Made by a program: the position numbers and the translations under genes. From Chiloscyllium plagiosum (lineage: Eukaryota), in the NCBI RefSeq assembly GCF_004010195.1, contig NC_057710.1, positions 137,336,503-137,400,502 of the forward strand: DNA of 64,000 bases, read 5' to 3'. The notes below the pieces were generated by a model. That model searched no databases, was not told the origin of the DNA, and saw nothing but the letters and a program-made list of their open reading frames with translations. This document shows positions 4,600 to 46,683 of the stretch, in pieces. Position 1 is the stretch's first letter, and each line of letters starts with the position of its first letter.

Positions 4600-4627
4600 G
4601 ACGTTTCGGGCATAAGCCCTTCTTCAG
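4600..4627 (-). ncRNA. Minimal type I hammerhead ribozyme motif (PLE family A)
   Basis: Minus strand CTGAAGA-A-GGGC-ttat-GCCC-GAAA-CG-TC: intact core, 4-bp stem II, loopless palindromic ACGT stem III; stem I imperfect (attc/gatt). Confidence 0.75.
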
Positions 4628-4778
4628 GAATGAGGAAAGTTTGTCCAGCAGGCTAAGATAAAAGGTAGGGAGGAGGGACTTGGGGGAGGGGCGTCGGAAA
4701 TGTGATAGGTACTACAAACAAACCATTATCTCCCAGACCGTCCATAACCTCATCACCTCGGGGGATCTCCCATCCACC

Positions 4779-5735
4779 NNNNNNNNNNNNNNNNNNNNNN
4801 NNNNNNNNNNNNNNNNNNNNNNNNNNNNNNNNNNNNNNNNNNNNNNNNNNNNNNNNNNNNNNNNNNNNNNNNNNNNNNNNNNNNNNNNNNNNNNNNNNNN
4901 NNNNNNNNNNNNNNNNNNNNNNNNNNNNNNNNNNNNNNNNNNNNNNNNNNNNNNNNNNNNNNNNNNNNNNNNNNNNNNNNNNNNNNNNNNNNNNNNNNNN
5001 NNNNNNNNNNNNNNNNNNNNNNNNNNNNNNNNNNNNNNNNNNNNNNNNNNNNNNNNNNNNNNNNNNNNNNNNNNNNNNNNNNNNNNNNNNNNNNNNNNNN
5101 NNNNNNNNNNNNNNNNNNNNNNNNNNNNNNNNNNNNNNNNNNNNNNNNNNNNNNNNNNNNNNNNNNNNNNNNNNNNNNNNNNNNNNNNNNNNNNNNNNNN
5201 NNNNNNNNNNNNNNNNNNNNNNNNNNNNNNNNNNNNNNNNNNNNNNNNNNNNNNNNNNNNNNNNNNNNNNNNNNNNNNNNNNNNNNNNNNNNNNNNNNNN
5301 NNNNNNNNNNNNNNNNNNNNNNNNNNNNNNNNNNNNNNNNNNNNNNNNNNNNNNNNNNNNNNNNNNNNNNNNNNNNNNNNNNNNNNNNNNNNNNNNNNNN
5401 NNNNNNNNNNNNNNNNNNNNNNNNNNNNNNNNNNNNNNNNNNNNNNNNNNNNNNNNNNNNNNNNNNNNNNNNNNNNNNNNNNNNNNNNNNNNNNNNNNNN
5501 NNNNNNNNNNNNNNNNNNNNNNNNNNNNNNNNNNNNNNNNNNNNNNNNNNNNNNNNNNNNNNNNNNNNNNNNNNNNNNNNNNNNNNNNNNNNNNNNNNNN
5601 NNNNNNNNNNNNNNNNNNNNNNNNNNNNNNNNNNNNNNNNNNNNNNNNNNNNNNNNNNNNNNNNNNNNNNNNNNNNNNNNNNNNNNNNNNNNNNNNNNNN
5701 NNNNNNNNNNNNNNNNNNNNNNNNNNNNNNNNNNN
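4779..5735. other. Assembly gap (957 N)
   Basis: Run of n. Confidence 1.
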
Positions 5736-5736
5736 A

Positions 5737-6139
5737 TAAGGCGTTGGGGTCCGGGGAAGCGAAAATCATGGAGCAGGTGGAGGGCGTGGGTGGTGTCCCG
5801 AACGTAGGTGGGGAGTTCTTGGACTAAGGGGGACAGGACGGTGTCAAGGTATGCGGAGATGAGTTCGGTGGGGCAGGAGCAGGCGGAGACAATGGGTCGG
5901 CCGGGGCAGTCAGGTTTGTGGATTTTGGGCAGGAGGTAGAAGCGGGAGGTGCGGGGTTGTGGGACTATGAGGTTGGAGGCGGTGGATGGGAGATCCCCCG
6001 AGGTGATGAGGTTATGGACGGTCTGGGAGATGATGGTTTGGTGGTGGGGGGTGGGATCATGGTCAAGGGGGCAGTAGGAGGAGGTATCTGCGAGCTGGCG
6101 TTTGGCCTCAGCGGTGTAGAGGTCGGTGCGCCAAACTAC
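5737..6139 (-). pseudogene. PLE reverse transcriptase fragment (open frame up to the gap)
   Basis: VVWRTDLYTAEAKRQL...FYLLPKIHKPDCPGRPIVSACSCPTELISAYLD...TYVRDTTH, typical PLE RT N-terminal motifs. Confidence 0.9.
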
Positions 6140-6639
6140 TGAGATTATCAAATTGAGATTATCAAATTGAGATTATCAATCATGTCTTTCAGCAACTATA
6201 AAGGACAGTGAAGATGGCCGTATTTGAGCACAAAATATTTTTATTCAACACTATAAACACAAACATTTAAAACTCCAATGAAACCAAGGTCAGGACGACT
6301 ATTATTACATTAATAAAAACTGGAAATGGATGTAAGCCTGAAACTGCTTTGTAAGCAATACATTATATCCACTTCAGATAATGCTAAACTTACTGCTGCT
6401 GAACTACCTTCAACTCAATCCACAAAGGTAAAAACAACAAAGAGGAAAATTCCACAAAAGCAATTATTTGTCCAAAAGTAAAGTACAGTTCATTTGGAAG
6501 ACAAAGATATCCCGTTTCAACAATTTTCCTAATGATAAGGTCACATTTTTGCTAATTTGAAATTTTAACTATTTTGACTTTTATACATTATAAAACTAAG
6601 TTCTGATATAAGTTATGAATTGAAAAATATACAAAGACA

Positions 6640-7050
6640 AGTTGTCACAGCGGCCAGTTTAATTCTGCAGCCCGCTGAGTACAGAGGGGTGACATACAGG
6701 TGAGGTTCCCAACTGTACTCAGGAAGGAAAACAGCACATATGGCATTTCATTAAAATTTTATTTCCGGATTTCTGTTTAATTGGTGGTGAAAGGGCACAA
6801 TCGTAAATACAGTGTTTAAGGGATCACTCCCAAGTATGCTTTTTAAAGGAGCTTAGAGCTGGCAACCAAAGCGAAGGAAATGCCATAATGGAGAGGACCA
6901 GAGCAAAGATTACTACACTTCATTTCAGCGATACCTACTTGGATGTGTTGAAGGCTGTGATACTTCCCTACTAACAGGAGAAAGAAGCCTACAGTGGAGA
7001 GCAAGAAAGTCTAAAGATCGTAGCTGCAGCAGCAAAATGGTAAGATGCTA
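6640..7050 (+). mobile_element. Probable PIF/Harbinger relic (start of Myb/SANT-like ORF)
   Basis: atggagagg...catttcagcgatacctacttggatgtgttgaaggctgtg resembles the PRFSDxxLxxLLxAV start of Harbinger Myb/SANT proteins; decayed. Confidence 0.35.
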
Positions 7051-7149
7051 CTCAATTCAATGCTTTAATGACCTAACCTGGTTAGGAATGGTTAGGCATT
7101 GACATATGAATGCATATTCTGCTATGCACATGATCCCACTTGCTCATTC

Positions 7150-7790
7150 TACCTTGACAAGTCTACCATTCACAGGTTACCACTGACCAGAAAACAAATT
7201 GAAGCAGCCATATGAAGAGCGTGGCTAGAAGAGCTGAAGAGAAGCTCGGAATTCTGCAGAGTATGATCTACTTCCTGTCTCCCCAGTGCTACCCTTTACA
7301 ATTCAGGAGTGTGATGGAACAATCTCCAGTTGCCCGAGTGGGTACAGTTCCAACAACATGGAAGGAGCTCAATACCACCCAGGACAAACTTGATTGATAC
7401 CACCTTCAATATTCACTCTCTTCACCACAGTGGCAGCAGGGTCTACCATGTACAAAGATGGACTACAGTAACTCACCAATAACACCTTCCAAACCTGCAC
7501 ACTCTGTCACCGAGAAGGACAAAGGCAATAGATAAATTCGAACACTACCAGTATCTGTAGATTCCATTCCAAGACATACGTCAACCTGACTTGGAACAAA
7601 TCACCATTTCGTCACTGTCAGTAGGTCAAAGACCGGGAACCCTCTTTCTAAAAGTACTGTAGGTGACCCTACATTCAATGGGCAACTCAAGGTGGTAGTT
7701 CCCAACCACCAACTCCAGGGCAGTTAGGATGTGCAATAAATGCTGGCCTAATTGGTGATGCCCACATTCCATGAATAAAATAAACTTCCA
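7150..7790 (+). mobile_element. CR1/L2-group LINE 3' fragment (family with gcaataaatgctggcc tail)
   Basis: Tail gcaataaatgctggcc...gcccacattccatgaataaaa; related pieces at 22485-22535, 39030-39990, 49310-50120 and 61270-61980. Confidence 0.65.
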
Positions 7791-8039
7791 ACAGGGACTT
7801 CTCACACTCATTCAGGTGCATCCACTTTTCTCTTTCTGTGAATGCATTCAGTTGTCTATTCATTTAACTACTTATCTAGGTCTTCAGCTCTTCCTTAGTT
7901 ACCGTCCCCCAACATATCCCTCCCATTGGATGAGCATATCATAACACAATGTGGCATCTGAGTACAAAACACTGGCATTTTACCAATGATCCCCACTGGC
8001 TAGGGTAAAGTGATCCAGCATTCCTTCTTCCAGTGACAG

Positions 8040-8390
8040 TCTAAATGACTATTTAGTAGTCTGTGGTGTAGGAAGGACCACAAACATGTATTGGGATAAA
8101 AGGTTCTTTTTCAGAATGGCAGCTAGTGATAAGTGGTGTCTCGCAGGGTTTGGTGTAGGGGCTGCAGCTGTTCACTTTATATATTAATGATCTGGATGAA
8201 GGGACCGGGGGCTTTCTGGTGAAGTTCATCGATGATACAAAGTTAGGCGGACAGACAGGTAGTTTTGAGGTGGTGGGGAGGCTGCAGAAAGACTTAGACA
8301 GTTTGGGAGAGTGGTCCAAGAAATGGTTGATGAAATTCAATGTGAGCAAATGCGAGGTCTTGCACTTTGGAAAAAAGTAAATCTGATGGT
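8040..8390 (+). mobile_element. CR1 LINE RT fragment
   Basis: Encodes SGVSQGLV*GLQLFTLYINDLDEG...KFIDDTKLGG...FNVSKCEVLHFGK. Confidence 0.85.
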
Positions 8391-8394
8391 GATA

Positions 8395-11300
8395 AGCCAC
8401 ACTAGAATGGGTTGAACAGATAATTTAGCAAACCTGCATAAAAGGCAGTTGCTTTTAGAAGAAATGTGATCACCTGTACACAATGCTCAGCTTCCAGTAT
8501 GACTGTGCACATCTGGTTAAATAATGAAACCTGGAAGAGGCTGCAAGCTGATTAAAAGACCCATCAGCAAACACTGTAGTTCATCACTGGATACGGCCGC
8601 CTCAGAACCCCGTATGTAGTGAACATTCCATGCAAGAACTCAACAACTGCATCTGCAGTGGCAGTACAGAACTATTTTACTTAAATCCATGAGAAACAGC
8701 TGATAGTCATAAAGTAAGACTGTCTATCAAACAGTTTGGTTCCCATTTATTCTCATGGCTTGGTGGGGCAAGTGGTTCTCTTGGTCAGACCAATGGAAAG
8801 CTCAGGTCTCACAGAAAGCTGTCTCTCTGGAGATTGCTGGTCAACACAATAGGCCCTGACCCTTGCCTCTGCACTTGGTTATGTCCAAGTGACCCTGGTG
8901 TAATTTGTCTAGGATGTCACTCCTCTGAGTGAAGGATCAGCCTATCAAATACCAGCAAATAATCAAGAACTGCGAACTCCTATCAATGCTCAAAATAAGT
9001 CATTACACCCAACCTCCAACACAACATTAGTGAACAGCATCACATTCCCAGTCCTCATTGTTTTTGTCAGATTTGATTGAGCTCACTTTGGGTTGCTGGC
9101 TACCATACCACTGTGGTTTGAGTATATGATTCAGGTTTTCACCAATAAATCCCTTATCAGGCTGTCAATTACTCCACGAAGAACCTCTGCTATCACTTGC
9201 AGCTTTCCTTGCATATATTTGGTCTCATAGGCATACTTTGAAAGGCAAACATAAACTTCTATTTGTGGAAGTATCCTTGCTAGTTCTCTCTCATCTACCA
9301 GGGAGACCAGTAGTTTATAGCCCATCTCTGCAAGTACTTTCAAGCCAAGGATGCAATCTGAAAACCTCTCACATGCCCACAAGGCAAAGAGGGCACCCTC
9401 CTCTTTAGTTATCCAACATGACTCTGGGTATGACAATGCCCTGAAGGCTGAATACACCAGTTTCTATACCCAGCTGGAAATTCCAGAATGAGTACTGCTT
9501 TCTAGTGTGATGAAAGTGAATAACATAGTCTGCTTCCATGCTGTACATCTCTATGACTCTATGCTCATCATTTGGAAATTATAATGTTTTATAATTGAGA
9601 CAGATGGGCTTTGGCTTCAGTCTTGTGAAAGTAATTCCTTTCTTAAAGAAAACCGTCAGAACAAAATTTGGAGAAGTGACCTGAATACATCATTTCCAAG
9701 AAAGCAAGTGACTTAGCAAGAGCCTGGCCAGATATCTACAGCTACTGGATAAAACGTTTACTCTGCTGAGTTCATGGCATACAGATTAAAAGAAAGAGTA
9801 GAAGCGACAGCTAGCTTAGTTTGAGTTCACATCAGAGAAATGAAGTTTCGGTTTTATACTAGCAAAAGAATAAAGATTGTACATTTCAGGCGAATTTAAG
9901 CCTAGCAAAAGGACAGATTAGTTCATGCAATCTCCACACTTGGAGTTGCGCAGTGGTTTCCAAGCTGTCGGAACTGAAAAGTGGTCTTAAAATGGTATCA
10001 GGAAAACTGAAAAGCATCAGTTCAGTAACAAATGAAAGAGTTAAGAAAGGAGTGACAGCTTTTTGGCATTAAGTATCGGAAAAGGATATTGGTAGGATAA
10101 AAGGATGGATCTTGTGGTTGTGATTTATATCTGCTCTTTTTTGTATAATAAACACATTTTTGGCAGCTTTGCATGAATATATGCAATGACTAATCACCAC
10201 AATAACCGTTGGTATCCAATTATAAAAATAAAACTTATGATTGATAAAGCCATATTTCTTTCTAGCATCTGACCTGTCCAGTATTACTTTCAACTGGGAT
10301 CGTAACAGAGCCTAAGCTGAAGCATGCAAAGCTTTACATATTTGGAAGGGAATAGACTGTAATGGGCAAGGACATCTGTGGACAGCAGCATGCCCTTGAT
10401 CTTTTGGAAAGCACACTCCTGATGCAAGCCCCAGCACCGCCCTTTGTTTTTGAGTAGCTGTCTCAAAAGGTTCTGTCAGCGTTCCCAAACAGGCAAAAGT
10501 TTTGCCAAATGGTTCACTATTCCTTGAAAGTGATTAAGGAGTGGGAACTCCATAAAAGACTACTTCTTCTTTGGGGACAGTGTTATCTCATCTTAGTCAA
10601 TAATGTGTCTGAGAAAGCAAATAGTTTTCTCTGAGAAATCACATTATTTGTCAAGAGTAAGCCCTGCAGCCTGTGGCTAATTTCACATTCCTGGACTTTC
10701 TGGTCATATTTTTCAATCGTCTTACCATGCATCAATAAGTCATCCATATCACATATAACCCTTTCCATTGAAGAATCACTTCCCAATGGAACGAGAAATG
10801 TAGTAAGCAGTCTTGTTGGACATCTAATGATAGCTCCAGAACAGATGACTGGCATCAAGTTTGTAAAACTTCTACTTTAGACAATTTGGTTAAACTCACA
10901 TTGGCCATAGACATAGAATGGGATTTTCTCAGCCACTGTTTTGTTGAATTTTGTTAAATGGATACATATTTTGATGGACCCATTGGATTTGGATACAGTA
11001 ACCATGCATGAATACCTCTCAGTTAGTTTAGTCACCCAAGAAATGCCCATTTTGGTCAGTTTTCTCAAGTCGTTCCTGAACTTCACTCATTAACAGGGAT
11101 AGAATCTTCCTGTATGCTCAGAGACAATGGGTTAGCACTCGCCTTTAATGTGATGCTGCATTCAGTATTGAGTTTGTTTAATGCCTCACCTATCTCCTCC
11201 AAATGAGGTACTTGTTTTAACGTGGAAAACTCTTCTAAAGGAAATGGATGATCTACTGCGTAGAGTCCTTTACACATATCCACTAGTACCTTTGTTCAGG

Positions 11301-13115
11301 AACTATTCAATTTCTGCATATTATGTTTTTTTAAAAGAGGGAACACTTTTGGTCATAGTTGGACGCTGCTTTTGCCTTTGAGATATTTTTGTTCCACAAC
11401 ACTTACAATAATTCTTAGCACCTGATATTCTGTGCATTGTGCGTGTTGGCTTGTCTGTGTCTGTTTCATGTTTTTGCCTTATGAAGTTGCTCGAGTAGAA
11501 TTGTTCCCTTCTCAGGATTTCTCTAATTCTTCCTGGTCTCTGCTTCTAATGCAATTTGATCAACTCTTCAGAATTAAATCTTCTTGAATAGATCTAATAA
11601 AGCCTGAACAAAAGTTCCAGCAATAATTTAGCATCTTATTAATTCTGACTGCAAGGCTTCATACTCACAATTTCCACCAAGCTATAGAAGTCATGAATGA
11701 ATTCAACTACAGGTTCCCCTCAAAGTTGAACTACTCTGTTAAATCACATCCATTCAAGAATTCTATTTGTTCCTAAGTAATCATCAGCTGCAGGAAGTAC
11801 TGAATACTATATTAACTTGTTCTGTTTCTGATTCGCCACAATTTTGTATATTAGTAGCTGTTTTCTCCATATAAATCAAAACTTTTGCTCTGTTAGAGCC
11901 AAGCCAACTATGATTTTGAATCTGAAGTATATTCCATTTCTATTTCTTCGCATTGATCAATCTTTTGACTTTAAAGCATCTTAAATCTGTTTAACTTCAA
12001 TATTGTTTTAAATCTGATCATCTTGTATTCAGAAAGGGTATTATTTTAAATTATAGTACAGTATAGCTTGCTAGTGTCTTCACAGCTTTTTCTTTATTTA
12101 CCAGACTTCTTTTGAATTGTATTAATCTTTCTAATAAAACTTTAAGCTCTATTTACACAATGTTCTGTAGAGATTTACTGCAGCTAATTTTAAGTCTTAT
12201 TTTTGGTAAAACTCATTTTTAAAATTAAAAGGTCATAAAATTGTCTATACCAATAATCTTCTAAAAAAGCTAATCAAACTTTAGACATTTCAAAACTTGT
12301 AAACTCTCTTAAATACCTCAGAAAAACTATCAGTATTATCTTCCTGATCGAGAGAATCAGGAATAGAACAGTCTCTTTATTTTCCTTTTGCTTGGAAAGT
12401 TTCATAATTATTTTAAAACAAATTTGCAGCCTTTCACCTCTTCTTGAGATGATCTGTGCTTTTGTTCCTCTGTACAAATGGTGTACTGAAACTCAGCCTA
12501 TTATTAAAATATATTTTTTTATATCTTTTTAAACTTTTATTCTCGGTATCTTAATCTGCTGTGGTGAGCTATTTGCTTTCAAAATTTCTGATTTTGATAT
12601 ATATTCAAGTTATGGCTCGGTTTTAACTTTTGCACCTGAACCTTACAGTGCCCACTCATGACTGCAGCAATGCTCATTTTACCAGTAAATAATCATGTTT
12701 TATTCTTCCAGCCTTTCAACCTGGGGTGTTCTGCTATTCAGGTATGTTTTCTACCCTTTTCCCTTCGGGATTTAACTTACTGCTGGAATCTCTGATGTCT
12801 GTTTGCTGTACCACCAAACCCCAAGTCAGATCTGCTCACACTGGCTTTACTGCCACGTTCCTAGGTTTCCTTGCCTTCTCACTTCAGTGTATTGCAAATA
12901 AGCTGTTACAGCTTTTATGAGCTTGTGCTGACTGATGTCTGTTTAAATTGTTTTCAATCTGCCCAGCGACCAAACTTAAGCCAAAGCTCTTAATGTGATA
13001 TCCGACTTGGCTGCAAATACACAAAAAAAATCATCTTTTTATTTAGATTCTAGTCAATTATTTTCACTGTTTGCCTCTCCAAAATAGGATGTAATGGCAC
13101 CTGTTGGTGCCACCA
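8395..13115 (-). mobile_element. Decayed Ty3/Gypsy LTR retrotransposon internal region (gag-RT-RNaseH-integrase)
   Basis: Minus-strand remnants: gag near 11600-11900; RT MVTVSKSNGSIKICIHLTKFNKTV (10877-11086) and VICDMDDLLMHG (10583-10858); RNase H KEEGALFALWACERFSDCILG (9131-9457); integrase-like remnants 8400-8760; many stops and frameshifts. Confidence 0.8.
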
Positions 13116-13494: not shown

Positions 13495-13794
13495 CTTACC
13501 CAAGTTTCTGAGCTCCCTCCTTGAAAAGGGGAGCTCAGAAGACCAAGAGTAAATCAAAGTCATCCAGATGTTATAGCAGACTCAGTCACATTCACATGAT
13601 TTCAGTAACAAGCTATTGTAATATATTTATCCCTTGTCAGGTCTCATTCTCATCTCCCCAATGCCCTTCAGATATTGCTGAAGATAATTGCTCAGAGGAG
13701 TCTCAGTTTCAGGACTCACGCAAATCATGCACTAGCTCAGATAGTCACACTTTGGGCAAATCTTCTGTTTTCATTACATCTCATTCATTTGGTC

Positions 13795-14962: not shown

Positions 14963-14964
14963 CA

Positions 14965-22772: not shown

Positions 22773-23283
22773 GTTCACAAAATATATCTACTACCACAGG
22801 GCTGGAGGTGAACAAAACTATTTTGTGAAACTGACTTCCTCATAACTTACTGTTGAATTGAAGGAGTAGGACAAAGGGTACTGCTGTACATGCTGTCTGT
22901 AAAATGTTCTGAGGCATGTTGTGGAGACATGATCAGAAAAACAAAAATCAAAATGGTCTTGGTTAAAAAAGGGGCTCAATTAGGTGAATCCAATAAATAG
23001 GACTTAGACAACTAAACTCAAAGTATTGTTCACAAAAATATATCTACTACCACAGGACTGGAGGTAAACAAAACTATTTTGTGAAACTGACTTTCTCATA
23101 ACTTACTGTTGAATTGAAGGAGTAGGACAAAGGGTACTGCTGTACATGCTGTCTGTAAAATGTTCTGAGGCATATTGTGGAGACATGATCAGAAAAACAA
23201 AAATCAAAATGGTCTTGGTTAAAAAAGGGGCTCAATTAGGTGAATCCAATAAATAGGACTTAGACAACTAAACTCAAAGTATT
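22773..23283. repeat. Tandem duplication of about 255 bp
   Basis: 22773-23027 and 23028-23283 are nearly identical with a few substitutions and indels. Confidence 0.95.
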
Positions 23284-24026: not shown

Positions 24027-24188
24027 CGTCCTGTGCTTCTGAAGCAGGTGCTGGTGATGCAGAGGATGATACTGGTGGATCAACTGAGGAAGGTGGCCTC
24101 CTTGCAAGAGGTGCTCCAATGACTGGAAGTGTTGCTACTTTCACTCTGTCAGGTAGATAACTTTGGTGGGGTATTGAAAGGGGTGGAC
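24027..24188 (-). CDS. SEC24B: SEC24B internal coding exon (probable exon 3)
   Basis: Acceptor ctctgttctgcatttag|GT, donor GACG|gtaaat; 162 nt, phase 1-1; (G)PPLSIPHQSYLPDRVKVATLPVIGAPLARRPPSSVDPPVSSSASPAPASEAQD(G); in frame with both neighbouring exons. Confidence 0.82.
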
Positions 24189-27655: not shown

Positions 27656-27905
27656 AATTTAACAGAACTACAGTAATTATTGGAAACAAAAGACATTCAA
27701 AATGTCATAAAGATACATGTAACATTTTTTAAATGCTCTAAATCTTAAGGTAGGAAAATTAGCCAAGCTAAATTGCCTATAATGTTCAGGGATGTGCAGG
27801 TTGGGTGGATTAGTCAGGAGAAATGTAGAGTAATAGGGGAATGATTGAAACTTTATTGCTGGAACAGCACAGCAGGTCAGGCAGCATCCAGGGAACAGGA
27901 GATTC

Positions 27906-27933
27906 GACGTTTCGGGCACAGGCCCTTCTTCAG
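27906..27933 (-). ncRNA. Minimal hammerhead ribozyme motif (PLE family A)
   Basis: Minus strand ATTC-CTGAAGA-A-GGGC-ctgt-GCCC-GAAA-CG-TC-GAAT: intact core, 4-bp stem I and 4-bp stem II. Confidence 0.8.
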
Positions 27934-28618
27934 GAATGAGCAGATAGAAGCAACTGAACCTTGTGGAATATCACCGTAGCAATCAGTAAGACGACAAAAA
28001 ATGTACACCTGTACATCTGCAGTGGTTTACAAGCCCTTGGATTTAGAATTTTATTATGTTCTCTTGGGTTATATTTCTAAAATTCAAATTGGTAATGCTT
28101 CCGGTCATGTAAATCCACAACAGTACAAGGCATATTTGTCATATATGTATGTCAAATGAAGTTGACAGGTGGATGTGTTTTTTGTACATAATGGACTTGT
28201 TAACCATAGCATTTAAATATCTTCAGCATGGAATTAAGATCAGCTAGAATCATGGCCATTTTTAATTACTTTTAATGCTACTTTTACTGAGTTTCTTGTA
28301 TAGCTTCAGTTGAAATTACTGTAGGTAGTTGGAATAATATTTAATTGTAGTAAAACATCAGAGTACCGTATCATTAACGCTTCTAAAAATGAAAGTAATA
28401 AACAGACTTTGGAATCAGAGAAAATATTTAAACATAATTGTTTTAAAAACAATTTTTTCCTGACCTGCAGTCTTCTTCTTGACCTCTCCGCCTCCATCCT
28501 ACTCCGACCTATCACCCTCACCTTGACCTCTTTCCACCTATCACATTTCCAACGCCCCTCCTCCAAGTCCCTCCTCCCTACCTTTTATCTTCTCCTGCTG
28601 AACACTCTCTGCTCATTC

Positions 28619-28646
28619 CTGAAGAAGGGCCTGTGCCCGAAACGTC
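28619..28646 (+). ncRNA. Minimal hammerhead ribozyme motif (PLE family A)
   Basis: CTGAAGA-A-GGGC-ctgt-GCCC-GAAA-CG-TC; first base of the stem I 3' strand is mutated (caat rather than gaat). Confidence 0.7.
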
Positions 28647-29021
28647 CAATCTCCTGTTCCCTGGATGCTGCCTGACCTGCTGTGCTGTTCCAGCAATAAA
28701 GTTTCAACTTTGATCTCCAGCATCTGCAGACCTCACTTTCTCCCCTAATAGGGGAATGGTTCTGGTTGGGATACTCTTCAGAGGGTTGGTGTGGACTTGT
28801 TGGGCCAAATGGCCTGTTTCCACATTGTAGAGATTCTATGATTCTATGAACCTGAAATACTTGAATAACTAAAGATTATTTGTAAATTTTAGTGTTTACT
28901 CGATAGATTTGTCAATACAGGGTAAATTACACAGGGCTGTCGATTAAACTCAAACAAACATGCACCATGCATTTTCTTTCATATTCACTGCCTTGGGAAA
29001 AAAAAAGAAAATATCCCCTAC

Positions 29022-29741
29022 CTGCACTTGTCTGGCTATTTGGAGAGGAAACAGTAACAGGCGGATTGGTAACAGGCCCTGCTGATGTTGTCATCGAAGC
29101 TCTGGATAAGGGTTGCCAAGACACAGCAGCATCGCCAGCAGGATAAGGCTGAAACGATGCTTGAATGGGTCTCTGCCCAGTTTCAGGCAATGGTTTCACA
29201 TGACCGGGTAAAACACCAACTAAAGGCTGTCTGGTAGCAGGATGAATAGTCTGTGAGGTTAAATGAGTATTGTACTGGGTACTGAAAACAGGCATTGCAT
29301 GATAAGAGAAGCCAGGATTAGAAGAATTGGGGGGAATACCCTGAGTAGTATTTTGAGAAGGTACGCTGTAATGAACTTGACCAGGATAGTGTCCAAGATT
29401 TGGAACATAACCAACTTGCAGAGGAGTGCTTACAAATGCAGGGTCAAACTGAGGGCTGGCAGTGATCAAATTAGGACCCAAGGGAAGTGCAGTGTGCATC
29501 TGACCAGGTCCTTGAGGAGCACCCAAGGATGTAGGACATAAAGAAGGTCTGACAACGTTGTGGACAGGTGCCTGGTAGTTATTCTGGTAATAAGTAAAGT
29601 TGTATAGTCCAGCCGTGGGGGCAAGTGGTGCTTTACTTGGCACTTGCTGATGACATTCTGGAGCAGTACTGCTGTTCTGCAGAGGTGCTCCATGTCCAGT
29701 CGAGAGAGGCTGCTGCATAGACAATAAATTCGGTGTAGAGC
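29022..29741 (-). CDS. SEC24B: SEC24B large internal coding exon (probable exon 2; Pro/Gln/Ser/Tyr-rich disordered N-terminus)
   Basis: Acceptor tttcctttttcttttcag|GC, donor GCAG|gtaggg; 720 nt open frame, phase 1-1, GSTPNLLSMQQP...SPNSQTSA(G); size and composition fit the large second exon of SEC24A/B genes; splices in frame to the two downstream exons. Confidence 0.88.
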
Positions 29742-31427: not shown

Positions 31428-31475
31428 CAGAAGGATGACCACAGATAGGAGATGGAAGAGGTAACATTTTGGGTA

Positions 31476-31899: not shown

Positions 31900-32790
31900 A
31901 AAATATGTTTAAATGCTAAAGAATTTCTGCAAACTCACGGGAATCTGTTTCAGTGACTAATCACTATGCTAATCAACCATGAAAAAAAAATACCAGTACA
32001 GGAGCCTGGACATGGTCAGTCAGCTGCTCAGGGTGGTCAGAGTCAGGAAACTCTGCATATAGTGGGCGAGGGAAAGAGAAGTGGGTGGCAGACTTACTTC
32101 TGGTACATTTGCAGAGATGTCCGAGGGGGTGAGTCAGCTGTGCAGAAGAGATTCAGGGTTAGTCGGGGTCAGATGTCAGTGAGGATGGGAATGGGGAAGA
32201 TGTTGCAGGAAATGGTGGGTTCAGTAGCAGAGACAGAGTGAGTGTTAGGTATCAATGAGAAGACGGTGGCAATTTCACTGGCAGAGTGGAGAAGGTCATT
32301 GATCTTCTTCCTACATTGTGTGCATTCCTTCAGATGGTTGAGACAGCACTGGCCTGGATGGTAAGCATGATCCAGGTTGGCATGGTTCCAGTAGAATGGT
32401 ATCCTCTGTTGGCCTGGGAGAAAAGGAATGTCCTACCTCTGCACAACCCATCCCCAGCATCTCCATGTCCCTACCCACAAACAGAGGCACCAATTTTCCA
32501 CTGTCTGCCACGTCCAGGGCAAATGTCAGGAACCATGCATGGCAGCTCCAGACTGACAGCTCTTGTCTGAGCGCACAATATTGTTTTAAAAATGGTGCTG
32601 CACCACAGATTTTGGTCAATTCTGGGATATCCAGGACATGGAGAGTTGCTTTGGAAGTGGCACACAATATGATGGTGCTAGAATGTGTCAGAGGGTCACC
32701 AAAGGGTGGGGTAGGTAATAAATCAGGCGGGTTATGTAAAATAAGGTGATAGACATCCCCAAGCATCATGATGTGAAATCCTCCAAATAT
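31900..32790 (-). mobile_element. PIF/Harbinger relic with Myb/SANT-like ORF remnant
   Basis: Minus 32280-32480 reads, across a frameshift, PTWIMLTIQASAVSTI*RNAH-CRKKINDLLHSA, matching the RTxxQCRKKxNDL SANT motif. Confidence 0.6.
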
Positions 32791-33989
32791 TTTGACAAAA
32801 CTGACACTTACTGAAAGAAATTAAGATTCAGCCCTTGATCTATCAAGGCAGGTTTCATTCTGGGATCTGACTTGTGCAGTGTTATCATTGGATGGGATCA
32901 GAAGACTGGTTAGAATGTAGTGCAGCCAGCTGGTATAGATGCCAATCGAGAGTAATCAGCTGAAGATTCTGATGAATTGCACCATACAGTACTATATTTG
33001 GACTGTGCGCAAGTTTGTGTTAGGCTAACTACTGTTTTTGTTTCAATTTTTACTGGTATTTTTGCTGGTTCGCCCAGAACCCTATTTTTCCCAGAGGCCC
33101 TTTCCTTTCTATTGTATGATTTTCCATAACATGGCATCACACAGGATCGTGACAACTCAGTTATAGGAGAACTACCTGTACCTGCCCTTTAATAAATGTA
33201 CAGATGTAACTGAATGAATGATTGATATGAAATACCCTCCAGGCCCTAAAAATAAAGTATATAAAGAAACAGTAGGGTTCTTGTGACAATGTGGTAGTGT
33301 CCCTACATCTTTGCCAGAAGACCAATTCAAAATCCACCTGTGCCATATTAGTGTTATAGCTTGTCTGAACATGTTGTTTGAAAACATATATTAAAAAACT
33401 CAAGAAGCAAAAAGCACAGGCAAAGGGAGAAGGCTCTTTAGGATTTCCAGCTTAAGTTTAATGTCAGCCTAAAGTTGTGGTAGGGGTCATTACGCAGGCA
33501 TTAGAAAGCAGGCCCTTCTGTGCCCAATTTGTGATCAATAGATGCTCATAGCAGTCTCAGGTCATGTATTCACTATGTTTAATCTGCTTGTGCTATATTT
33601 GAACTGTTGCTTCTCAAAAACTACTTTAAGCCACTTGTGACTCCAACTGTTTTGATTAGTCTGTTACTACAGATTAAAATGTTTCAGTGTTCTGAAGTAA
33701 GAAAAACAGAGGTAGGAGTTAGAAGCCATGATTTATTTGGTTTGTAGAGAATGAAAGTTATTTGATCAGAAAGGACAAAACAAAATTGAGCGAAGCCAGA
33801 AGTATAACAGTGTTGACGGTTCACTGGAGTAGTTGATAGATAGATAGCCTGTCTTAGCAAATCAGCTTACCTGGGGCGAAAGATGTCCAGAGAATTTTTA
33901 CATAGAGTTAGAAGAGGACACAAGCCACAGAATCAGATCAGTCAGGCCAAACAGTCCTTGCTAGGGTTTATACTCTCGGTAAAAACAAT

Positions 33990-38830: not shown

Positions 38831-39029
38831 TATAAAGTGATTATTGAGGTTTGTTATTGGTGGAAGACATCAAGATCAGTCAAGTGCAAATTTGGGTGGT
38901 GGAAAAAGAGATTTGCTGACTGCATTTGTCACTGTCTTCCATTGTGGCAACAAAAACAACTCAGAAGTCATGGCTAGATCCCAAATTTGGAAATGCACCA
39001 ATAAAGGCTAGTTCTCTCGAACAGCCTTT

Positions 39030-39990
39030 TAACAAAAAGAGTTTTTATTCTTTCACAGAACATGGGTGTCACTGTCAAGGCCAACATATTTTGGCCTTTG
39101 AGAAGATGCTGCTGAGACAACGTTTTGAGCTGCTCAACAGGACTACAGGCAGACCTGTACCAATGTGGAAAGAAGTGCCTGAATTTTGGTCTAGTGACCA
39201 TGAAAGAACAGTGATATACGTCCAAGTCAAGGATGGCATGAATTGAAAAACAGTATGCAGCTGGTGATGATGTTTCCATAAAGTTTTGTCCTTGTCCCAA
39301 GTGTCAAAGTTGAGAGTTTAGAAGGTGCTATCAATACAGATTTGCGTTGTTGCAGTGCATCTTGTAGAGGTTGCCACTCCAAGTCAGTAGCAGAGGGAGT
39401 GAATATTAAAGTCAGTGTGTATGCTTCTGATCAAGTGGGCTGTTTTTTATCTGGATGTTTTCGAGCTTCTTGAGAATTCTGAGCTGTATTCCTTCTTTCA
39501 GAAAGCAACTGGACAGTATTCAGTCATACTCAAGATTGTGCTTTGTAGATGGTGGACAAGCTTAGGGAGTCAGGTGAGTTACTCAGTGCTGAGTCTTGGA
39601 CTCTGACCTGCTCTTCTCTGCACAGTATTCATATGGTTAGTCCAGTTCTGTTTCTGGTCAATGGCAACACCTGCCCCCAGGGATGATTTCGTCGGGGATT
39701 TAGCAATGATAATACAGGGAATGTCAAAAGGATGTGGTTCAAATCTCTCTTGTTGGAGATGGTCTTTGACTGGCAATTTTGAGAGATGAATGTCACTTAC
39801 CCCAATCCTGAATGTTGCCAGATCTCGCTGTATATCGACCCTGACTGCTTCAGTATCTTAGGAGTTGCAAATGGAACAAAATGTTGTACAGCAGACATTC
39901 TCAGATCAGACTTTATGATTTAAGGAAGATCAATGATGAAGTAGCTGAAGATGGTTGGACCTAAAACACTATCCGTAGGAACTCAGAGGA
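39030..39990 (-). mobile_element. CR1/L2-group LINE 3' fragment
   Basis: Reverse complement of the family at 7150-7790 and 49310-50120; includes ttcctacggatagtgttttaggtccaaccatcttcagctacttcatc RT motif. Confidence 0.65.
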
Positions 39991-40138
39991 TTCCAGTGGC
40001 ACAGTCCGCACCTATTAGTTAGGAGATCCAGGTTCAAGTCCCATCTGCTCCAGGGGTGACCACAGTTTTGTTTGGGCTCCTTGAAGCCACACTTGGTCAG
40101 AAGCTGCCATAATATCAAGGGCAGTAACGATCAGCTCA

Positions 40139-41750
40139 GTTGAATTGAATTGAATTGGATTTACTGACACGTGTACCGAGGCACAGTGAAAAGCAGACCA
40201 CAGAGTTAAATAGCACAGATAGTAAATAATAGGTAAACAGTGGCAAAACAAAAACACAGGTACAGGTGAATGTTAAGAGTTTGAGTGTCCATTCAGTATT
40301 GTAACAACAGTAGGGTAGAAATTGTTTTGAAACCGGCTGGTGCATATTCAGGCTTCTGTACCTTCTCCCTGATGGTAGAGGTTGTAGAAAAGCATTGCCA
40401 GGGTGGGATGGATCTTCGAGAATGCTGGCGGCCTTTCCTTGATAACGGGCCTGGTAGATGGATTCTGTAGATGGGAGGTTGGCCTTTGTGATTGTCCGGA
40501 CCCAGTTCACCACTCTCTGTAACTGTCTCAGATCTTGAATGGTATAGTTACCATACAGGCAGTGATACATCCAGACAGAACGCTCTATAAAAGTTGGCAA
40601 GGGTATTCTCCGTCATGCCAAATTTCCTCAGCTGCCTGAGGAAGAGGAGACGTGTTGGGCCTTTGTAACCAATGCATCCACATGAAGAGTCCAAGCAAGC
40701 TTGTTTTGGATGACCACTCCCAGGAGCTTGATACTCTCCTCGCGTTCCACCTCTGTGCTGTTAATGTGTAGGGGGGCATGAGTAACATCCCGACAAAAGT
40801 CAGTAATGAGTTCCTTGGTTTTGCCGGCATTGAGAGTGAGGTTGTTCTTAGTGCACCATTTTTCCAGGCCTTCCAGTCTCATCTGTAGCCTGTTTTGTCG
40901 TTATCTGAAATTCAACCGACTATCAGCAAACTTGTAAATGGCGACACAGCCTGGTATTTGGCGACACAGTCATGTGTATATAGTGAGTACAGTAGGGGGC
41001 TGAGTACGCACCCCTGGGGGGCTCCAGCGTTGAGTGTTAGTAGGATGAAATAATATTCCCAATCTTCACTGATTGTGGCCTGTGGGTCAGGAAACGGAGG
41101 ATCCAGTTCCAGAGAGTGGGGCTTCGTTTGAGATCACTAAGTTTAGTAATCAGTCTTGAGGGGAAAATAGTGTTGAAGGCTGAACTGTAGTCAATGAGTA
41201 GGAGTCTTACGTAGTTGTTCTTGGTGTCAAGTGATATGGCATCTGACGTGGATCTGTTGGTCGATTAGGCAAATTGGAGTGGGTCAAGAATAGTGGGGAG
41301 GCTGGAGTTGATTAATGCCATGACCATCCTTTCAAAGCACTTTATGATCACTGGACGGTAGTAATTGAGACATGCTTCATGAGCCTTCTTAGGCACAGGG
41401 ATGATATTGGCCCTCTTGAAACAGGCGAGGACAGTGGCCTGCTGGTGGGATAGGTTGAAGATGTCCGAGAAGACCTCTGCCAGTTGATTTGCACATGCTC
41501 TGATTATGCGGCTGAGTACTCTGCCTGGCCCCATCGCTTTCCTACAATTCACACAAAGGAAAATTGATCTGACCTCTGATGCAATGACTTTGGCATAGGT
41601 TTGTCAGGACTTACGGAAAAGGTGTTACCTCTCCGCCGAAATTCTGCTCAAAGCCAGCAAAGAAGGCGTTGAGACAATCTGGGAGGGATGTCTCCTATCG
41701 TCTGCTATCTTACAATGTTTCTTTTTAGAACTTGTGATGTCATTCAACTG
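40139..41750 (-). mobile_element. Rex1/Babar non-LTR retrotransposon ORF fragment
   Basis: CANQLAEVFSDIFNLS, IIPVPKK, LDPLQFA, WCTKNNLTLNAGKTKELITDF, DPSHPGNAFLQPLPSGRRYRSL; (ttcaa)n tail; frameshifted. Confidence 0.88.
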
Positions 41751-42199
41751 TGGAATTCAGTTGTGGAATTTTGTAAGGCTGCAATGAAGTCTGGAGCCAA
41801 GCGATCAGGCAGAACCAAAACTGAGCGTGGTCAATGACACCTTCCGTCACTTTGCTGATGACAGAAAGCAGTCTAAGGGGATGGTAATTGGCTGAATTTT
41901 CCAAGCCAGGTTCTGTCCACTTTTTTTTGTGGACATAACCTACTTGGAAAATTTCACCATTGCAACATAGATGCCAGTGTTATAGGTAGCCTTTCGTTAA
42001 TTTATGGTGTTTACAACAGCAACAAGATTCCAGTTTATTCATTAATCCAGTTCCTCCATTGTAAATTGAAATAGGAGCTTTGGAGCCTTTAGCCACAACG
42101 GATGTCATAATTCTATTATGGAAACAGTCAGGAATCTAACTTCAGGCACAGCAGATGGTAGGGACAACAATGAGAAGGGAGGCAGTCAACATAGATCTC

Positions 42200-44230
42200 T
42201 GTTTGTTGTACTTAAATGCAAGCAGTGTATGATGAAACATGAGGGCAAGGTAACTAGTATTATAAAATAAAATTGCAAGAGCCTTTTATAGATCTTCAAA
42301 AAGACAAGAGAAAGACAACAGTGGACAATGGACTGCTGGAAAACAAGGCTAGAGAAATAGCCACAGGGAAACAAAGGAATGACAAGAGAAGTGAATAGGT
42401 TCTTTGCATTAGTTTTCGCAGTGGAAGACATACCAGAACTTCAAAAGAATTAGGAGGCACAGGTGAGTGAAGTTGCCATCACTAATGCGAAGGTGTTGGA
42501 AAAACCAAAAGGTTTGAAGGTGGATAAATCATCCATACAAGATGGATTACATGCAAGGGTTCCGAAGGAGATAGCAGGGGAGACTGTGGCAATCTTTCAG
42601 GAATCACTGGAGTCAGGAAAGGTCCCAGAGGACTGGTAACTGGCTGATATACAAGATGGATTACATGCAAGGGTTCCGAAGGAGATAGCAGAGGAGACTG
42701 TAGCAATCTTTCAGGAATCACTGGAGTCAGGAAAGGTCCCAGAGGACTGGTAACTGGCTGATGTAACACCCCTGTTTAAAGGAGGGAGGGAAGAAGAAGA
42801 CAGAAAAGCAAATGCCGTTAAGTTTGGCCTCAGTTATTGGGTAGATTTGAGTGATCATTAATAAGGATGAGATCACTGAATACATGGACGCGCGTGGAAA
42901 GATAGGATGGTGTCAGCACAGCCTCGTCAAGGGGAGGTCATGTCTGACAAATCTGTTAGAGCTCTTTGGCAGTGGTAATAGGCAAGTTAGTCAAAGGAGA
43001 GCCAATGGATATGATCTATTTGGATTTCCAGAAGCTCTTTGACAAGGTACTGCACAGGGGACAGCTACATAAGAGCCCATGGCATTAGGGGCAAGATATT
43101 GGCATGGATGGAGGATTAACTGACTGGCAGAGAGTAGCAAAAGAAGAGTCTTTTTCATGATTGCAGATAGTGACTAGTGAGTTCCACAGGCATCAGTGTT
43201 GGGACAACTATCCATGCTGTATATTAGTGATCTGGATGAAGAAACTGAGAGCATTGTTGCTAAGTTTGCAGATGCAACAAAGGTAGGTGGAGGGACAGAT
43301 ATTGCTGAGGAAGTGGAGAGACTAGATAAGGACTTGGAAAGGCTAGGACAGGAGGTAAAGAAGTAGCAGCTGGAATTAATATGGGAAAGTGTACAGTTAT
43401 GCACTTTGATAGTTCGTTTGTTCTGTGTCAGACTACTCTCCTACGAACCTGACCTTGAGAATTTTTTTAAAACAGATAGGGAGAATACAGACATAGACTA
43501 TTTTCTAAACAGGGGAAAGGCATCAGAAATCTAAAGCAAAAGGGGACTTGGGAGTTCTGGGTCAGGATTCTCTGAAGGTTAACATGCTGATTCAATTGTC
43601 AGTTAGGAAGGCAAATGCAATGTTAACATTCACCACAACAGGGCTAGAATACAAGAGCAGAAATGTATTGCTGAGGCTGCAAAAGGCTCTCGTCAGACCT
43701 CATTTGGAATATTATGAATAGTTTTAGGTTCCATATCTAAGGAATGATGTGTTGATGTTGGAGGGGTTCCAGAGGAGGTTTACAAGAATGATCTTGGGCC
43801 TGAGGGCTTGTCATGCAAGGAGTAGGTGAGGACTGTGGGTCTGTACTTGACATAGGTTAGAAGGATGAAAGAGGATCAGATTAAAATTTATAGAATATTG
43901 AAAGGCCTGCATAGAATGGACATGGGGAAGCTGTTTCCACTAGTAAGAGAGACTAGGACCCAAGGGTACACCCCTCAGAGTGAAGGAACGATCCTTTAGA
44001 ACTAAGAGACAGAGAAATTTCTTCAGCCAGAGAATGGTGAATCTGTGGAACTCATTGCCTCAGATGGCTGTGGAAGTCAAGTCATTGAGTGTGTTTAAGA
44101 CTGAGATGAATAGGTTCTTGATCAGTAAGGGAATCAAAAGTTACAGGGAGAAGACAGGAGAATGAGATCAAATTGATTGAATAGCAGAGCAGACTCAATG
44201 GCCTGAATGGCTTAGTTCTTCTCTTATGGC
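42200..44230 (+). mobile_element. CR1 LINE ORF2 remnant
   Basis: [45 protein letters not shown]; tail ggcctgaatggc. Confidence 0.88.
42535..42762. repeat. 114-bp tandem duplication inside CR1
   Basis: 42535-42648 repeated at 42649-42762 with two substitutions. Confidence 0.95.
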
Positions 44231-44529
44231 ATTATTCATCATTTTCTTTCCTTCAATAATGTTCTCTTTTCCAAGGTGTTGGCTCCTTGCCCAAGTACAC
44301 TTGCCCTGAGGTACCACATTCAAGCATGAGGTATGATTGGGAATATCAGGTTATGCAACCATCACGGAGCTACTGCAGCTACCTGTCTTCACCAGACGAT
44401 CATGCGTGTACACTTCTGTTGGAACAGATTGATCAGGTGAATGAACTCTGGACAACGTTCCCTTCCTTAACCTTGGGATGCTGAGACCACTTGCAGCAAC
44501 TAAACAGTTGCCCCAGCTGGAATTAATCA

Positions 44530-44694
44530 GATGACTTTATAGAGGTTTATAAAATCATGAGGAGCAAGGATAGGGTGAATAGCCAAAGTCTTTTTTTCCC
44601 CAGGGCAGGGGAGTCCAAACACTAGAGGGCATAGGTATAAAGTGAGAGGGGAAAGATTTAAAATAGACCTGAGAGGCAACCTTTTCCATGATTA

Positions 44695-44726
<32 letters not shown>

Positions 44727-44920
44727 GTGCAGGAGGAGAAGGATAGAGCACATGAATGGAATGAGCTGCCAGAGGGAATGTTGGAGGCAGATACAATTAC
44801 AACATCTAAAAGGCAACTGAATGGGTACATGAAAGGGAAAGGGGACTAGGTCAGATTGGGATGTCTGGTTGGCACAGACAAGTTGGACCAAAGGATCTGT
44901 TTCTGTGGTGTACGGGTCTA
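44530..44920 (+). mobile_element. CR1 3' fragment with internal poly-G run
   Basis: atagaggtttataaaatcatgagg...ggaaagatttaaa...gttggaccaaaggatctgtttc; G-run at about 44699-44722. Confidence 0.8.
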
Positions 44921-45411
44921 CATCAGTGTATACTGGAAGCTGATTGGGGGATCTACACAATAGATCCAGCTTGGCTAATGGATAAATTGAGCTAATTTTA
45001 AAACAAAAATCAAGCTACGAAGATTTTGTTCTTCTGATTGTAGACTTTGAATTGTTTATATTTTGTTAGAACACTATAGCGCAAAATTACTGAGCCACTA
45101 TGTTTCCTTACTTAGGCATCAGATCTAAACCATTTTTTCACTCACTTTCAAATGAGAAGCCTTCAAGTAGTCATATATCGCTGGACAAGCTCTCAAAACG
45201 AAGCAACTCTCCACCCCTTTTCAGCGGGTGCAAAGCTGATACTGGGATCACCTGAACAAAAGACAAGATAGGAGAGGTTCACCATATGACAGAGGAATAA
45301 TCCCAGGTTTACACTGGTTATAGAGCCTGGCCTTTCAGCTGTGAACATTACAAAAGCACAGGTGTGGTGAAAGGGTTAAAATTATGTCCCAATACATGTG
45401 TGAATCTTATT

Positions 45412-45609
45412 ATGAATATGTTACCGGAATGGAAGGTGTTGCTTAGTCTTGCCCTGTTGTTCGCATGAATATGTTACCGGAATGGAAGGTGTTGCTTAAT
45501 CTTGCCCTGTTGTTCGCATGAATATGTTACCAGAATGGAAGGTGTTGCTTAGTCTTGCCCTGTTGTTCGCATGAATATGTTACCAGAATGGAAGGTGTTG
45601 CTTAGTCTT
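45412..45609. repeat. 53-bp tandem array, 3.7 copies
   Basis: Unit atgaatatgttacc(g/a)gaatggaaggtgttgcttagtcttgccctgttgttcgc starts at 45412, 45465, 45518, 45571; enclosed by a perfect 46-bp direct repeat (45318-45363, 45608-45653). Confidence 0.97.
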
Positions 45610-45760
45610 ATAGAGCCTGGCCTTTCAGCTGTGAACATTACAAAAGCACAGGTTGAGAAACAGCACACAGAACTGTTTGCTATCAAAATCAAACGTGCTG
45701 ATTGAATACACCAGCCTACAGAACCAGAAGTTCCAAGGGATCACAATGTCATAATTGCAA

Positions 45761-45872
45761 AGTTAAAAATCACACAACACCACGTTATAGTCCAAACTAT
45801 ACCCTGGACTATAACCTGGTGTTGTATGATTTTTAACTTTGTACACTCCAGTCCAACACCAGCATCTCAAAA
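45761..45872 (+). mobile_element. Fold-back PLE family B terminal fragment
   Basis: TSD tcataattgcaa (45749-45760, 45873-45884); inverted arms aagttaaaaatcacacaacacc..ttatagtcca / tggactataacctggtgttgtatgatttttaactt. Confidence 0.8.
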
Positions 45873-45964
45873 TCATAATTGCAAGTTTGTCTTACAAAAA
45901 AAACCAAGATGCTTTGCTTTATCTCACTCTATCTTATAATTTGTTGTCCTATTTTAATATTCCA

Positions 45965-46370
45965 ATCATAGAGCTGGCAAGCACGGAAACTGACCCTTTG
46001 GCATGGACAAGTTGGACCAATCAGCCATCCCAAGTAAATCTGGTCCCATTTGCCAGCATTAGGTCCATATCCCTCTAAACCCTTCCTATTCATGTACCCA
46101 TCCAGGTGTCTTTTAAACGTTGTAATTGTACCTGTCTCCACCACTTACTCTGGCAGCTCATTTCATACATGTGAAAAAGTTGCCCCTCAGGTCTCTTTTA
46201 AATCTTTCCCCTCTCACCTGAAACATAATTCTAATTCTGGACACCCCAACCCAGGGAAAAGACCTTATACATGCCCCTGTAAAAGGTCACCCCTCAGCCT
46301 CCAACTCTTCAGGGAAAACAGCCCCAGCCTATTCAACCTCTCCCTATCGCTCAAACCCTCTAACAATCTC
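45965..46370 (-). mobile_element. CR1 3' fragment
   Basis: VETGTITTFKRHLDGYMNRKGLEGYG; matches 13800-14240. Confidence 0.85.
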
Positions 46371-46591
46371 CTTTGTTGCAGACATTCCACAATTTACGCT
46401 CCTTTTCCACATGGGATTAAGTGGAAAACATTCCCAGTAAAAAGCACAATGTGTTGAGGTACAAGGCAGAGGTACTGAACTTGTGTTTGCTCTGGCATTC
46501 CCTGCCAGCATTCCTGCTCTCCCAGTGATGACACACACACATCAGAATGTGATATTCACAGATACTGATCACTCTCCATTAATTGGCTGCT

Positions 46592-46683
46592 TCTGGATTA
46601 GTGGTGCTGGAAGAGCACAGCAATTCAGGCAGCATCCGAGGACAGGCAAAATCGACGTTTCAGGCAAAAGCCCTTCATCAGGA
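46592..46683 (-). mobile_element. 92-bp PLE family A mini-insertion
   Basis: Perfect 14-bp TSD attaattggctgct (46578-46591, 46684-46697). Confidence 0.88.
46654..46681 (-). ncRNA. Minimal hammerhead ribozyme motif (PLE family A)
   Basis: Minus strand CTGATGA-A-GGGC-tttt-GCCT-GAAA-CG-TC; canonical CUGAUGA core, one G-U pair in stem II. Confidence 0.75.

What the first reader, a model, noticed from the sequence alone, without database searches (positions are those of the whole stretch)
4600..46681. Three intact-core minimal hammerhead ribozymes lie in sense within the SEC24B pre-mRNA
Seen: CUGANGA-stem II-GAAA-CG-UC motifs on the gene strand at 4600-4627, 27906-27933 and 46654-46681, plus antisense or damaged copies at 28619, 47862, 51702, about 56945 and about 61410. 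Established: PLEs carry minimal hammerheads whose loopless palindromic stem III (here ACGU) implies activity as dimers. Inference: several compatible copies in one transcript could dimerise in cis and cut introns co-transcriptionally, which would make shark introns dense with latent ribozymes. Stem I is short, so activity is uncertain. The 46654 copy is in the pre-mRNA only if exon 1 lies to its right.
Basis: partly seen in the sequence, partly recalled or inferred. Interest (0 to 1): 0.72.

Follow-up and report, generated by a model that had tools for sequence, protein, structure and literature searches.

The report
Penelope hammerhead debris in shark introns
The three small self-cutting RNA motifs in this shark gene's introns are real, but they are end pieces of a jumping gene with about 65,000 near-identical copies in the genome, show no clear preference for either strand inside genes, and are likely idle rather than cutting the gene's RNA.

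Summary
The motifs are real minimal hammerhead cores on the SEC24B sense strand. They are 3' ends of a young Penelope-like retroelement (RT, CxxxxCxxC linker, GIY-YIG, then hammerhead), from three separate insertions with target-site duplications. One 33-nt form has 64,742 exact genomic copies. Three sense cores per 64 kb is near background (expected 0.95, P=0.07). The 27906 copy is predicted to be zipped by its own inverted partner, and dimers across 19-42 kb are predicted unstable. CpG decay hits cores equally on both strands. Published PLE hammerheads are inactive as monomers, slow as dimers, or need the element's protein. By-products: copy 5' ends pile up four bases before the core, not at the cut site, so templates were likely uncleaved; the 27906 insertion carries a non-coding passenger found near-identical at 13 other loci. 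A weak post hoc deficit of unpaired sense cores (32:48, p=0.09) stays open. The scan noted similar shark copies before.

The parts
4600..4627 (-). Minimal hammerhead core (C3 at 4627, C17 at 4600), UUAU loop, stem I 2 bp + U-U + 1 bp
   Evidence: folding
4487..6174 (-). One PLE insertion: RT fragment (5741-6130), N gap, inverted RT piece (4714-4778), pLTR with hammerhead and tail; 11-nt target-site duplication
27906..27933 (-). Minimal hammerhead core, CUGU loop, 4-bp stem I; it is the inverted 5' arm (27845-27947) of the insertion below
27831..28758 (+). One insertion inside a SINE: inverted arm, 510-nt non-coding passenger (about 27948-28457), pLTR with hammerhead 28619-28646 and tail to about 28743; 13-nt target-site duplication
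28619..28646 (+). Antisense hammerhead, core intact, first stem I pair broken; predicted to pair with the 27906 copy (98% complementary over 103 nt)
46654..46681 (-). Minimal hammerhead core, UUUU loop, G-U at 10.1/11.1
46578..46697 (-). Short 5'-truncated PLE stub starting just before the core; 14-nt target-site duplication
47862..47920 (+). Second PLE family (AGCU-type stem III), stem II deleted, antisense to SEC24B
51702..51790 (+). Second PLE family, C3 changed to G, antisense to SEC24B
56886..57026 (.). Fold-back pair of PLE tails, both lacking the CUGA half of the core
61346..61517 (.). Fold-back pair of PLE ends with damaged cores (A9 changed, ACGU broken, G12 changed)
45146..45251 (-). 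Inferred internal 5' UTR exon of SEC24B (AG acceptor, GTGAGT donor, in-frame stop)
29020..29741 (-). First coding exon of SEC24B
24027..24188 (-). Alternative exon of SEC24B (approximate ends)
1842..1937 (-). Alternative exon of SEC24B (approximate ends)

Best explanation
The three motifs are hammerhead-bearing 3' ends of a young, very abundant Penelope-like retroelement, inserted separately into SEC24B introns, and they are likely inert passengers that do not cut the pre-mRNA to any meaningful degree. Shown here: element identity, separate insertions with target-site duplications, copy number, near-even orientation in genes, CpG decay on both strands. Inferred from PLE literature and copy ends: reverse transcription starts in the tail 80-125 nt past the core, copies an uncleaved RNA, usually stops about four bases before the core, and often adds an inverted arm. 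Predicted: in the host transcript each motif lacks a nearby partner, is often paired with an antisense copy, and then decays by CpG mutation.
For: 64,742 exact copies, control 0. RT, CxxxxCxxC linker and GIY-YIG precede the same hammerhead in two long copies, L120 and L199. Duplications of 11, 13 and 14 nt flank the three units. In 29 spans of 23 genes (1.53 Mb) sense:antisense is 23:27 intact, 52:58 broken, 48:49 tail-only. Strict-pattern density there is 18.3 per Mb against 18.2 genome-wide. 15 of 23 sense intact copies have an antisense copy within 1 kb. Stem II of 27906 has probability 0.0 in its 960-nt context; the three cross-copy double hammerheads are +4.1 to +8.5 kcal/mol above the monomers. 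The six CpG positions diverge 19.9% in sense and 20.4% in antisense copies; 60 of 76 broken full-length cores carry a CpG hit. 5 of 257 copies start at the cut site against 84 at -5 to 0. PMC4209133: monomer inactive, dimers low. PMC11167929: no cleavage without PLE protein, no RNA-seq ends at the site.
Against: No cleavage assay was run. Several subsets lean antisense without reaching significance: strict pattern 10:18 (p=0.18), second family 12:17, unpaired core-bearing copies 32:48 (p=0.09; against tail-only p=0.067, post hoc). The confidence interval for intact copies (32-61% sense) cannot exclude mild selection. Lunse et al., titled as showing dimer cleavage, could not be read.
Confidence: 0.85

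Rival explanations
1. Solo sense copies are occasionally cut when the element's RT-endonuclease protein binds them in cells that express the PLE, and such copies are weakly purged from introns.
For: The anole PLE hammerhead cleaves only with its protein (PMC11167929, section read). Young near-identical RT copies exist (29,445 candidates). Unpaired core-bearing copies are 32 sense to 48 antisense while unpaired tail-only copies are 28 to 20.
Against: The subset is post hoc and not significant. A pLTR promoter, a poly(A) signal (AATAAA subfamily 2:7) or splice signals could give the same tilt. Tail-only hits include related families. Core mutation is not higher in sense copies (non-CpG core 2.6% sense, 4.0% antisense).
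Confidence: 0.1
2. One reading: compatible copies in one SEC24B transcript pair across introns into a double hammerhead and cut co-transcriptionally.
For: All three share the ACGU palindrome and the AUUC 5' arm. Published PLE hammerheads show some activity as dimers and trimers (PMC4209133). 7 of 29 spans hold two or more sense intact copies; in two genes sense copies lie about 500 nt apart.
Against: Partners are 18.7-42 kb apart; the random-coil local concentration is 0.03-0.25 micromolar and predicted occupancy is 3e-10 to 0.4% at that level. 27906, the only copy with a full stem I, is predicted sequestered. No strand bias. Slow intronic ribozymes are reported not to affect splicing (Fong 2009 as cited in PMC10919898, passage).
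Confidence: 0.03
3. One or more of these copies has been domesticated as a SEC24B regulator.
For: The three cores are intact and lie around alternatively spliced exons.
Against: Intactness follows from youth: the 27906 unit's passenger is near-identical at 13 other loci and the 4600 RT piece is up to 100% identical to other copies. The 58 kb of the gene left of the window hold no intact copy. Orthologous sites in other sharks could not be examined.
Confidence: 0.02

Closest known systems
Minimal hammerheads (min-HHR) in pLTRs of metazoan Penelope-like elements (Cervera and De la Pena 2014, PMC4209133; parts 1-2 of 4 read)
   Same: Type I core, extra nucleotide between 9 and 10.1, G10.1-C11.1 pair, palindromic 15.2/16.2, no loop 3, short helix I, mostly solo truncated copies, pairs on opposite strands 100-700 bp apart.
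   Different: Copy number is far higher (64,742 for one exact form, against about 9,000 in Xenopus and 4,000 in coelacanth). Stem II is 4 bp rather than 7-8. The largest subfamilies have a U-U mismatch in stem I. Sharks are not named in the parts read.
EN+ PLEs of the Neptune/Nematis type (Craig et al. 2021, PMC8557442; passages)
   Same: RT, Zn-finger-like linker, C-terminal GIY-YIG, pLTR hammerhead, heavy 5' truncation, inverted 5' arm, optional tail.
   Different: No tree was built, so Neptune versus Nematis is not resolved. The optional tail here is about 44 nt (ends at +80-82 and +124-126).
Poseidon element PAc of green anole (Frangieh et al. 2024, PMC11167929; passages and second half of main text)
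   Same: Two 3' end points matching internal RT starts, ATT-rich target ends, hammerhead upstream of the RT start, uncleaved RNA as template.
   Different: Different PLE clade. Protein-assisted cleavage has not been tested for the shark element.
Functional intronic ribozymes such as CPEB3 (PMC10919898, passages)
   Same: Self-cleaving motif in the sense strand of a vertebrate intron.
   Different: CPEB3 is a monomer with a measured half-life of 2-3 minutes. The shark motifs are young dispersed repeats that cannot form stem III alone.
Non-LTR retrozymes (bioRxiv 10.64898/2026.07.22.740005; part 1 of 5 and passages)
   Same: Type I hammerheads derived from PLE pLTRs in vertebrates, including one chondrichthyan.
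   Different: Retrozymes are tandem arrays and are reported depleted from Xenopus introns. These copies are dispersed and show genome-average density in gene spans.

Membership tests
PLE minimal hammerhead (min-HHR) | Conserved core CUGANGA ... GAAA ... UH | tested here: met
   all three copies
PLE minimal hammerhead (min-HHR) | Extra nucleotide between 9 and 10.1, and G10.1-C11.1 pair | tested here: met
   Extra A in all three; G-C in 4600 and 27906, G-U in 46654
PLE minimal hammerhead (min-HHR) | Loopless palindromic stem III | tested here: met
   ACGU in all three
PLE minimal hammerhead (min-HHR) | Helix I of 4-5 bp | tested here: inconclusive
   4 bp only at 27906 (pair probability about 0.5 in a short construct, 0.2 in context); 0.00-0.11 for the other two
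PLE minimal hammerhead (min-HHR) | Self-cleavage as a dimer | not testable with these tools
   Needs an in vitro assay
EN+ Penelope-like element | RT followed by C-terminal GIY-YIG endonuclease | tested here: met
   RVT_1 E 4e-8 and GIY-YIG E 1.5e-5 (over cut-off) in one long copy, L054/L199; weaker GIY-YIG in L120
EN+ Penelope-like element | Hammerhead in the pLTR downstream of the ORF | tested here: met
   Same-strand tail about 1.15 kb past the RT piece in many of 30 RT loci; hammerhead after the endonuclease in L120 and L199, on both sides of the ORF in L200
EN+ Penelope-like element | 5' truncation, inverted 5' arm, optional tail, target-site duplication | tested here: met
Neptune/Nematis PLE clades | Zn-finger-like linker between RT and endonuclease | tested here: met
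   CNRRRCNTC in L120; feature defined in PMC8557442 passage
Neptune/Nematis PLE clades | Phylogenetic placement of the RT | not tested
   No reference PLE proteins were fetched
Domesticated intronic ribozyme (CPEB3-like) | Single locus rather than dispersed repeat | tested here: not met
   64,742 exact copies
Domesticated intronic ribozyme (CPEB3-like) | Conserved at the orthologous site across species | not testable with these tools
   No related genomes are held for this window (header)
Non-LTR retrozyme | Tandem head-to-tail units each with a hammerhead | tested here: not met
   Copies are 19-23 kb apart or head-to-head

The most novel reading that the evidence does not exclude
Bamboo shark introns hold on the order of 10^5 latent hammerheads that are switched on in trans by the Penelope RT-endonuclease protein in cells that express it, so solo sense copies are cut at a low rate and weakly purged, while copies born with an inverted arm are silenced. 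The pile-up of 5' ends four bases before the core would mark the element's own RNA start, making the hammerhead the first fold of its transcript.
Probability: 0.1. Interest if true: 0.65.

Novelty: new member of a known kind. Interest (0 to 1): 0.2.

Why it matters
If sense copies did cut, many shark genes would carry a ribozyme load switched on by distance or by a transposon protein, and intron orientation would record it. The evidence instead suggests that a vertebrate genome tolerates a very large number of intact minimal hammerheads in introns. That bears on the open question of what PLE hammerheads do. The copy ends give an in vivo readout: templates were likely uncleaved, in line with the anole in vitro result, and the sharp stop four bases before the core is a testable marker of the element's RNA start.

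Tried and rejected
Rfam scan: no hammerhead family among 13 weak matches; the minimal motif lacks stem III, so this is uninformative. RNA runs: no holder on record as RNA among indexed runs. Reads of one poly(A) single-cell run covered the 27906 site and showed no place where many molecules begin or end, but they come from all genomic copies, so this is a weak test; a second run gave no reads. Exon 1: no CpG island in the window or 100 kb to its right, and no match to a predicted N-terminal peptide; not located. A cut-site signature in copy 5' ends: starts at the cut site (399) are twice the +31 control (200), but about 39 of the 100 listed have junction-derived TCAG/TCCT prefixes (my count), and only 2 of 12 loci inspected were plain truncations; rejected as evidence of cleavage. 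A cap-derived extra G before -4: suggested, not borne out in non-inverted copies. Control repeats: none of 7 showed significant orientation bias. The ABCC family search gave one usable span. Lunse et al. was not held. Literature searches: hammerhead+Penelope+dimer, +shark (one irrelevant hit), Chiloscyllium plagiosum+Penelope (one listing not read); none listed a study of shark PLE hammerheads or of their intronic orientation. Supplements were not read and may list shark motifs.
Full report
Observation. The three motifs are at the stated minus-strand positions. Each has the conserved core, an extra A before a 4-bp stem II, and ACGU with no loop. Stem I is complete only at 27906; 4600 and 46654 have a U-U mismatch at the third pair, and 46654 has G-U at 10.1/11.1. 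The other listed copies are antisense or damaged as described, and two (47862, 51702) belong to a second family with an AGCU-type stem III.

Host gene. The exon at 29020-29741 is identical to a Chiloscyllium plagiosum Sec24B-like protein. The gene continues 58 kb left of the window. Two alternative exons lie near 24100 and 1900. An assembled contig matches the first coding exon exactly and has 124 further nt on its 5' side. A 106-nt segment at 45146-45251 has an acceptor and a donor, and its ends match peptides in two predicted shark proteins. I infer it is an internal UTR exon, so 46654 is likely intronic; exon 1 was not found. The three motifs then sit in three introns, or two when both alternative exons are skipped.

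What they are. A 33-nt form of the motif has 64,742 exact copies, evenly on both strands, with 0 for the reversed control. The 4600 copy lies beside an RT fragment with 29,445 genomic candidates, the best 150 at 92-100% identity. Long copies show RT, a CxxxxCxxC linker, a GIY-YIG domain and then this hammerhead, the layout of Neptune/Nematis-type Penelope-like elements (PMC8557442, passages). The three motifs come from three insertions with duplications of 11, 13 and 14 nt. 27906 is the inverted arm of a single unit that also holds the antisense 28619 copy.

Is three many? In 29 spans of 23 genes (myosins, flippases, SEC24A, one ABCC, SEC24B outside the window; 1.53 Mb; six spans extend beyond mapped exons and are assumed genic), sense intact cores predict 0.95 per window, P(>=3)=0.07. 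The 58 kb of SEC24B left of the window hold no intact copy. Seven of 29 spans hold two or more sense cores. Strict-pattern density is 18.3 per Mb in these spans and 18.2 genome-wide.

Strand test. Sense to antisense: intact 23:27 (95% CI 32-61% sense), broken 52:58, tail-only 48:49, total 123:134. The window's own copies were left out. Seven control repeats also showed no significant bias. Against a flat null, several subsets lean antisense: strict 10:18, second family 12:17, unpaired core-bearing 32:48 (p=0.09; p=0.067 against unpaired tail-only 28:20). These are post hoc, and a promoter or poly(A) signal in the pLTR could cause them. Strong selection is excluded; mild selection is not.

Decay. 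Three CpGs overlap C11.1/G12, C15.2/G16.2 and C17/1.1. They diverge 20% on both strands, against 3% for other core positions; 60 of 76 broken full-length cores carry a hit at G12, C15.2 or G16.2. Sense cores are not more damaged than antisense ones.

Folding. In its 960-nt context the 27906 copy is predicted to pair fully with 28619, and stem II has probability 0.0. Fifteen of 23 sense intact copies elsewhere have an antisense copy within 1 kb. In a double hammerhead both stem I helices and stem III are intermolecular; the three cross-copy dimers are predicted 4.1-8.5 kcal/mol less stable than the monomers. The model omits tertiary contacts and proteins.

Literature. A Schistosoma min-HHR did not cleave as a monomer and only weakly as dimer or trimer (PMC4209133, parts 1-2). 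The anole PLE hammerhead cleaved only with the element's protein, mutants still transposed, and no RNA-seq reads ended at the site (PMC11167929). Slow intronic ribozymes are reported not to affect splicing (PMC10919898, passage citing Fong 2009). Lunse et al. was seen only as a title and through a review (PMC6765202, passages).

Copy ends. Of 257 copies in gene spans, 147 extend through the whole core, 84 start at -5 to 0, and 5 start at the cut site, which is the local background. Genome-wide, starts at -4 number 2,205, against 261 at -7, 399 at the cut site and 200 at +31 (patterns differ in subfamily and CpG content). Most cut-site starts inspected were fold-back or deletion junctions. 3' ends cluster at +80-82 and +124-126, like the two RT starts of the anole element. 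I infer that templates were mostly uncleaved, though cleaved RNA may simply be lost. The -4 stop may be the RNA's start (it falls in a TCATTCC initiator-like sequence; consensus recalled) or ATT microhomology with the target.

Verdict. Cis-dimer cutting of SEC24B pre-mRNA is unlikely (about 3%); inert retroelement debris is the best reading (85%); protein-assisted low-level cutting remains possible (10%). Earlier scan notes reached similar readings on other shark windows; they are unchecked and not counted as support.

Noticed in passing
window 27948-28457; L251-L263: The middle of the 27906/28619 insertion is an AT-rich non-coding passenger, near-identical at 13 other loci and at least 970 nt long in most. 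All 13 carry an inverted PLE arm with varying junctions, so the arm is likely remade at each insertion. This looks like a very recent PLE-driven transduction burst; the source locus was not found.
   Followed up: partly
genome-wide; e.g. window 46685 and 27937: 5' ends of family copies pile up four bases before the hammerhead core (2,205 against 261 at -7), in an initiator-like sequence; possibly the element's transcription start.
   Followed up: partly
window 27846-27860 and 28690-28710: The CUGU-loop subfamily has AATAAA in its tail; single-cell reads show poly(A) directly after it. It is 2 sense to 7 antisense in gene spans and could act as an intronic poly(A) signal.
   Followed up: partly
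window 45146-45251: Shark and ray SEC24B proteins start at MQQP in the large exon, and the preceding exon carries an in-frame stop, so it appears to be 5' UTR.
   Followed up: partly
gene spans on C6, C1 and C36: A third minimal hammerhead family with a 6-7 bp stem II and ACGU (3 copies), and a variant with AUAU stem III, besides the ACGU and AGCU families.
   Followed up: no
window 45359-45609, 22779-23283, 42535-42762: Tandem duplications of 53, 256 and 114 nt; the 53-mer array lies about 100 nt upstream of the UTR exon's acceptor.
   Followed up: no
window 32311-32820: Open frames of 135-169 aa with no Pfam match; possibly a decayed DNA transposon fragment.
   Followed up: partly
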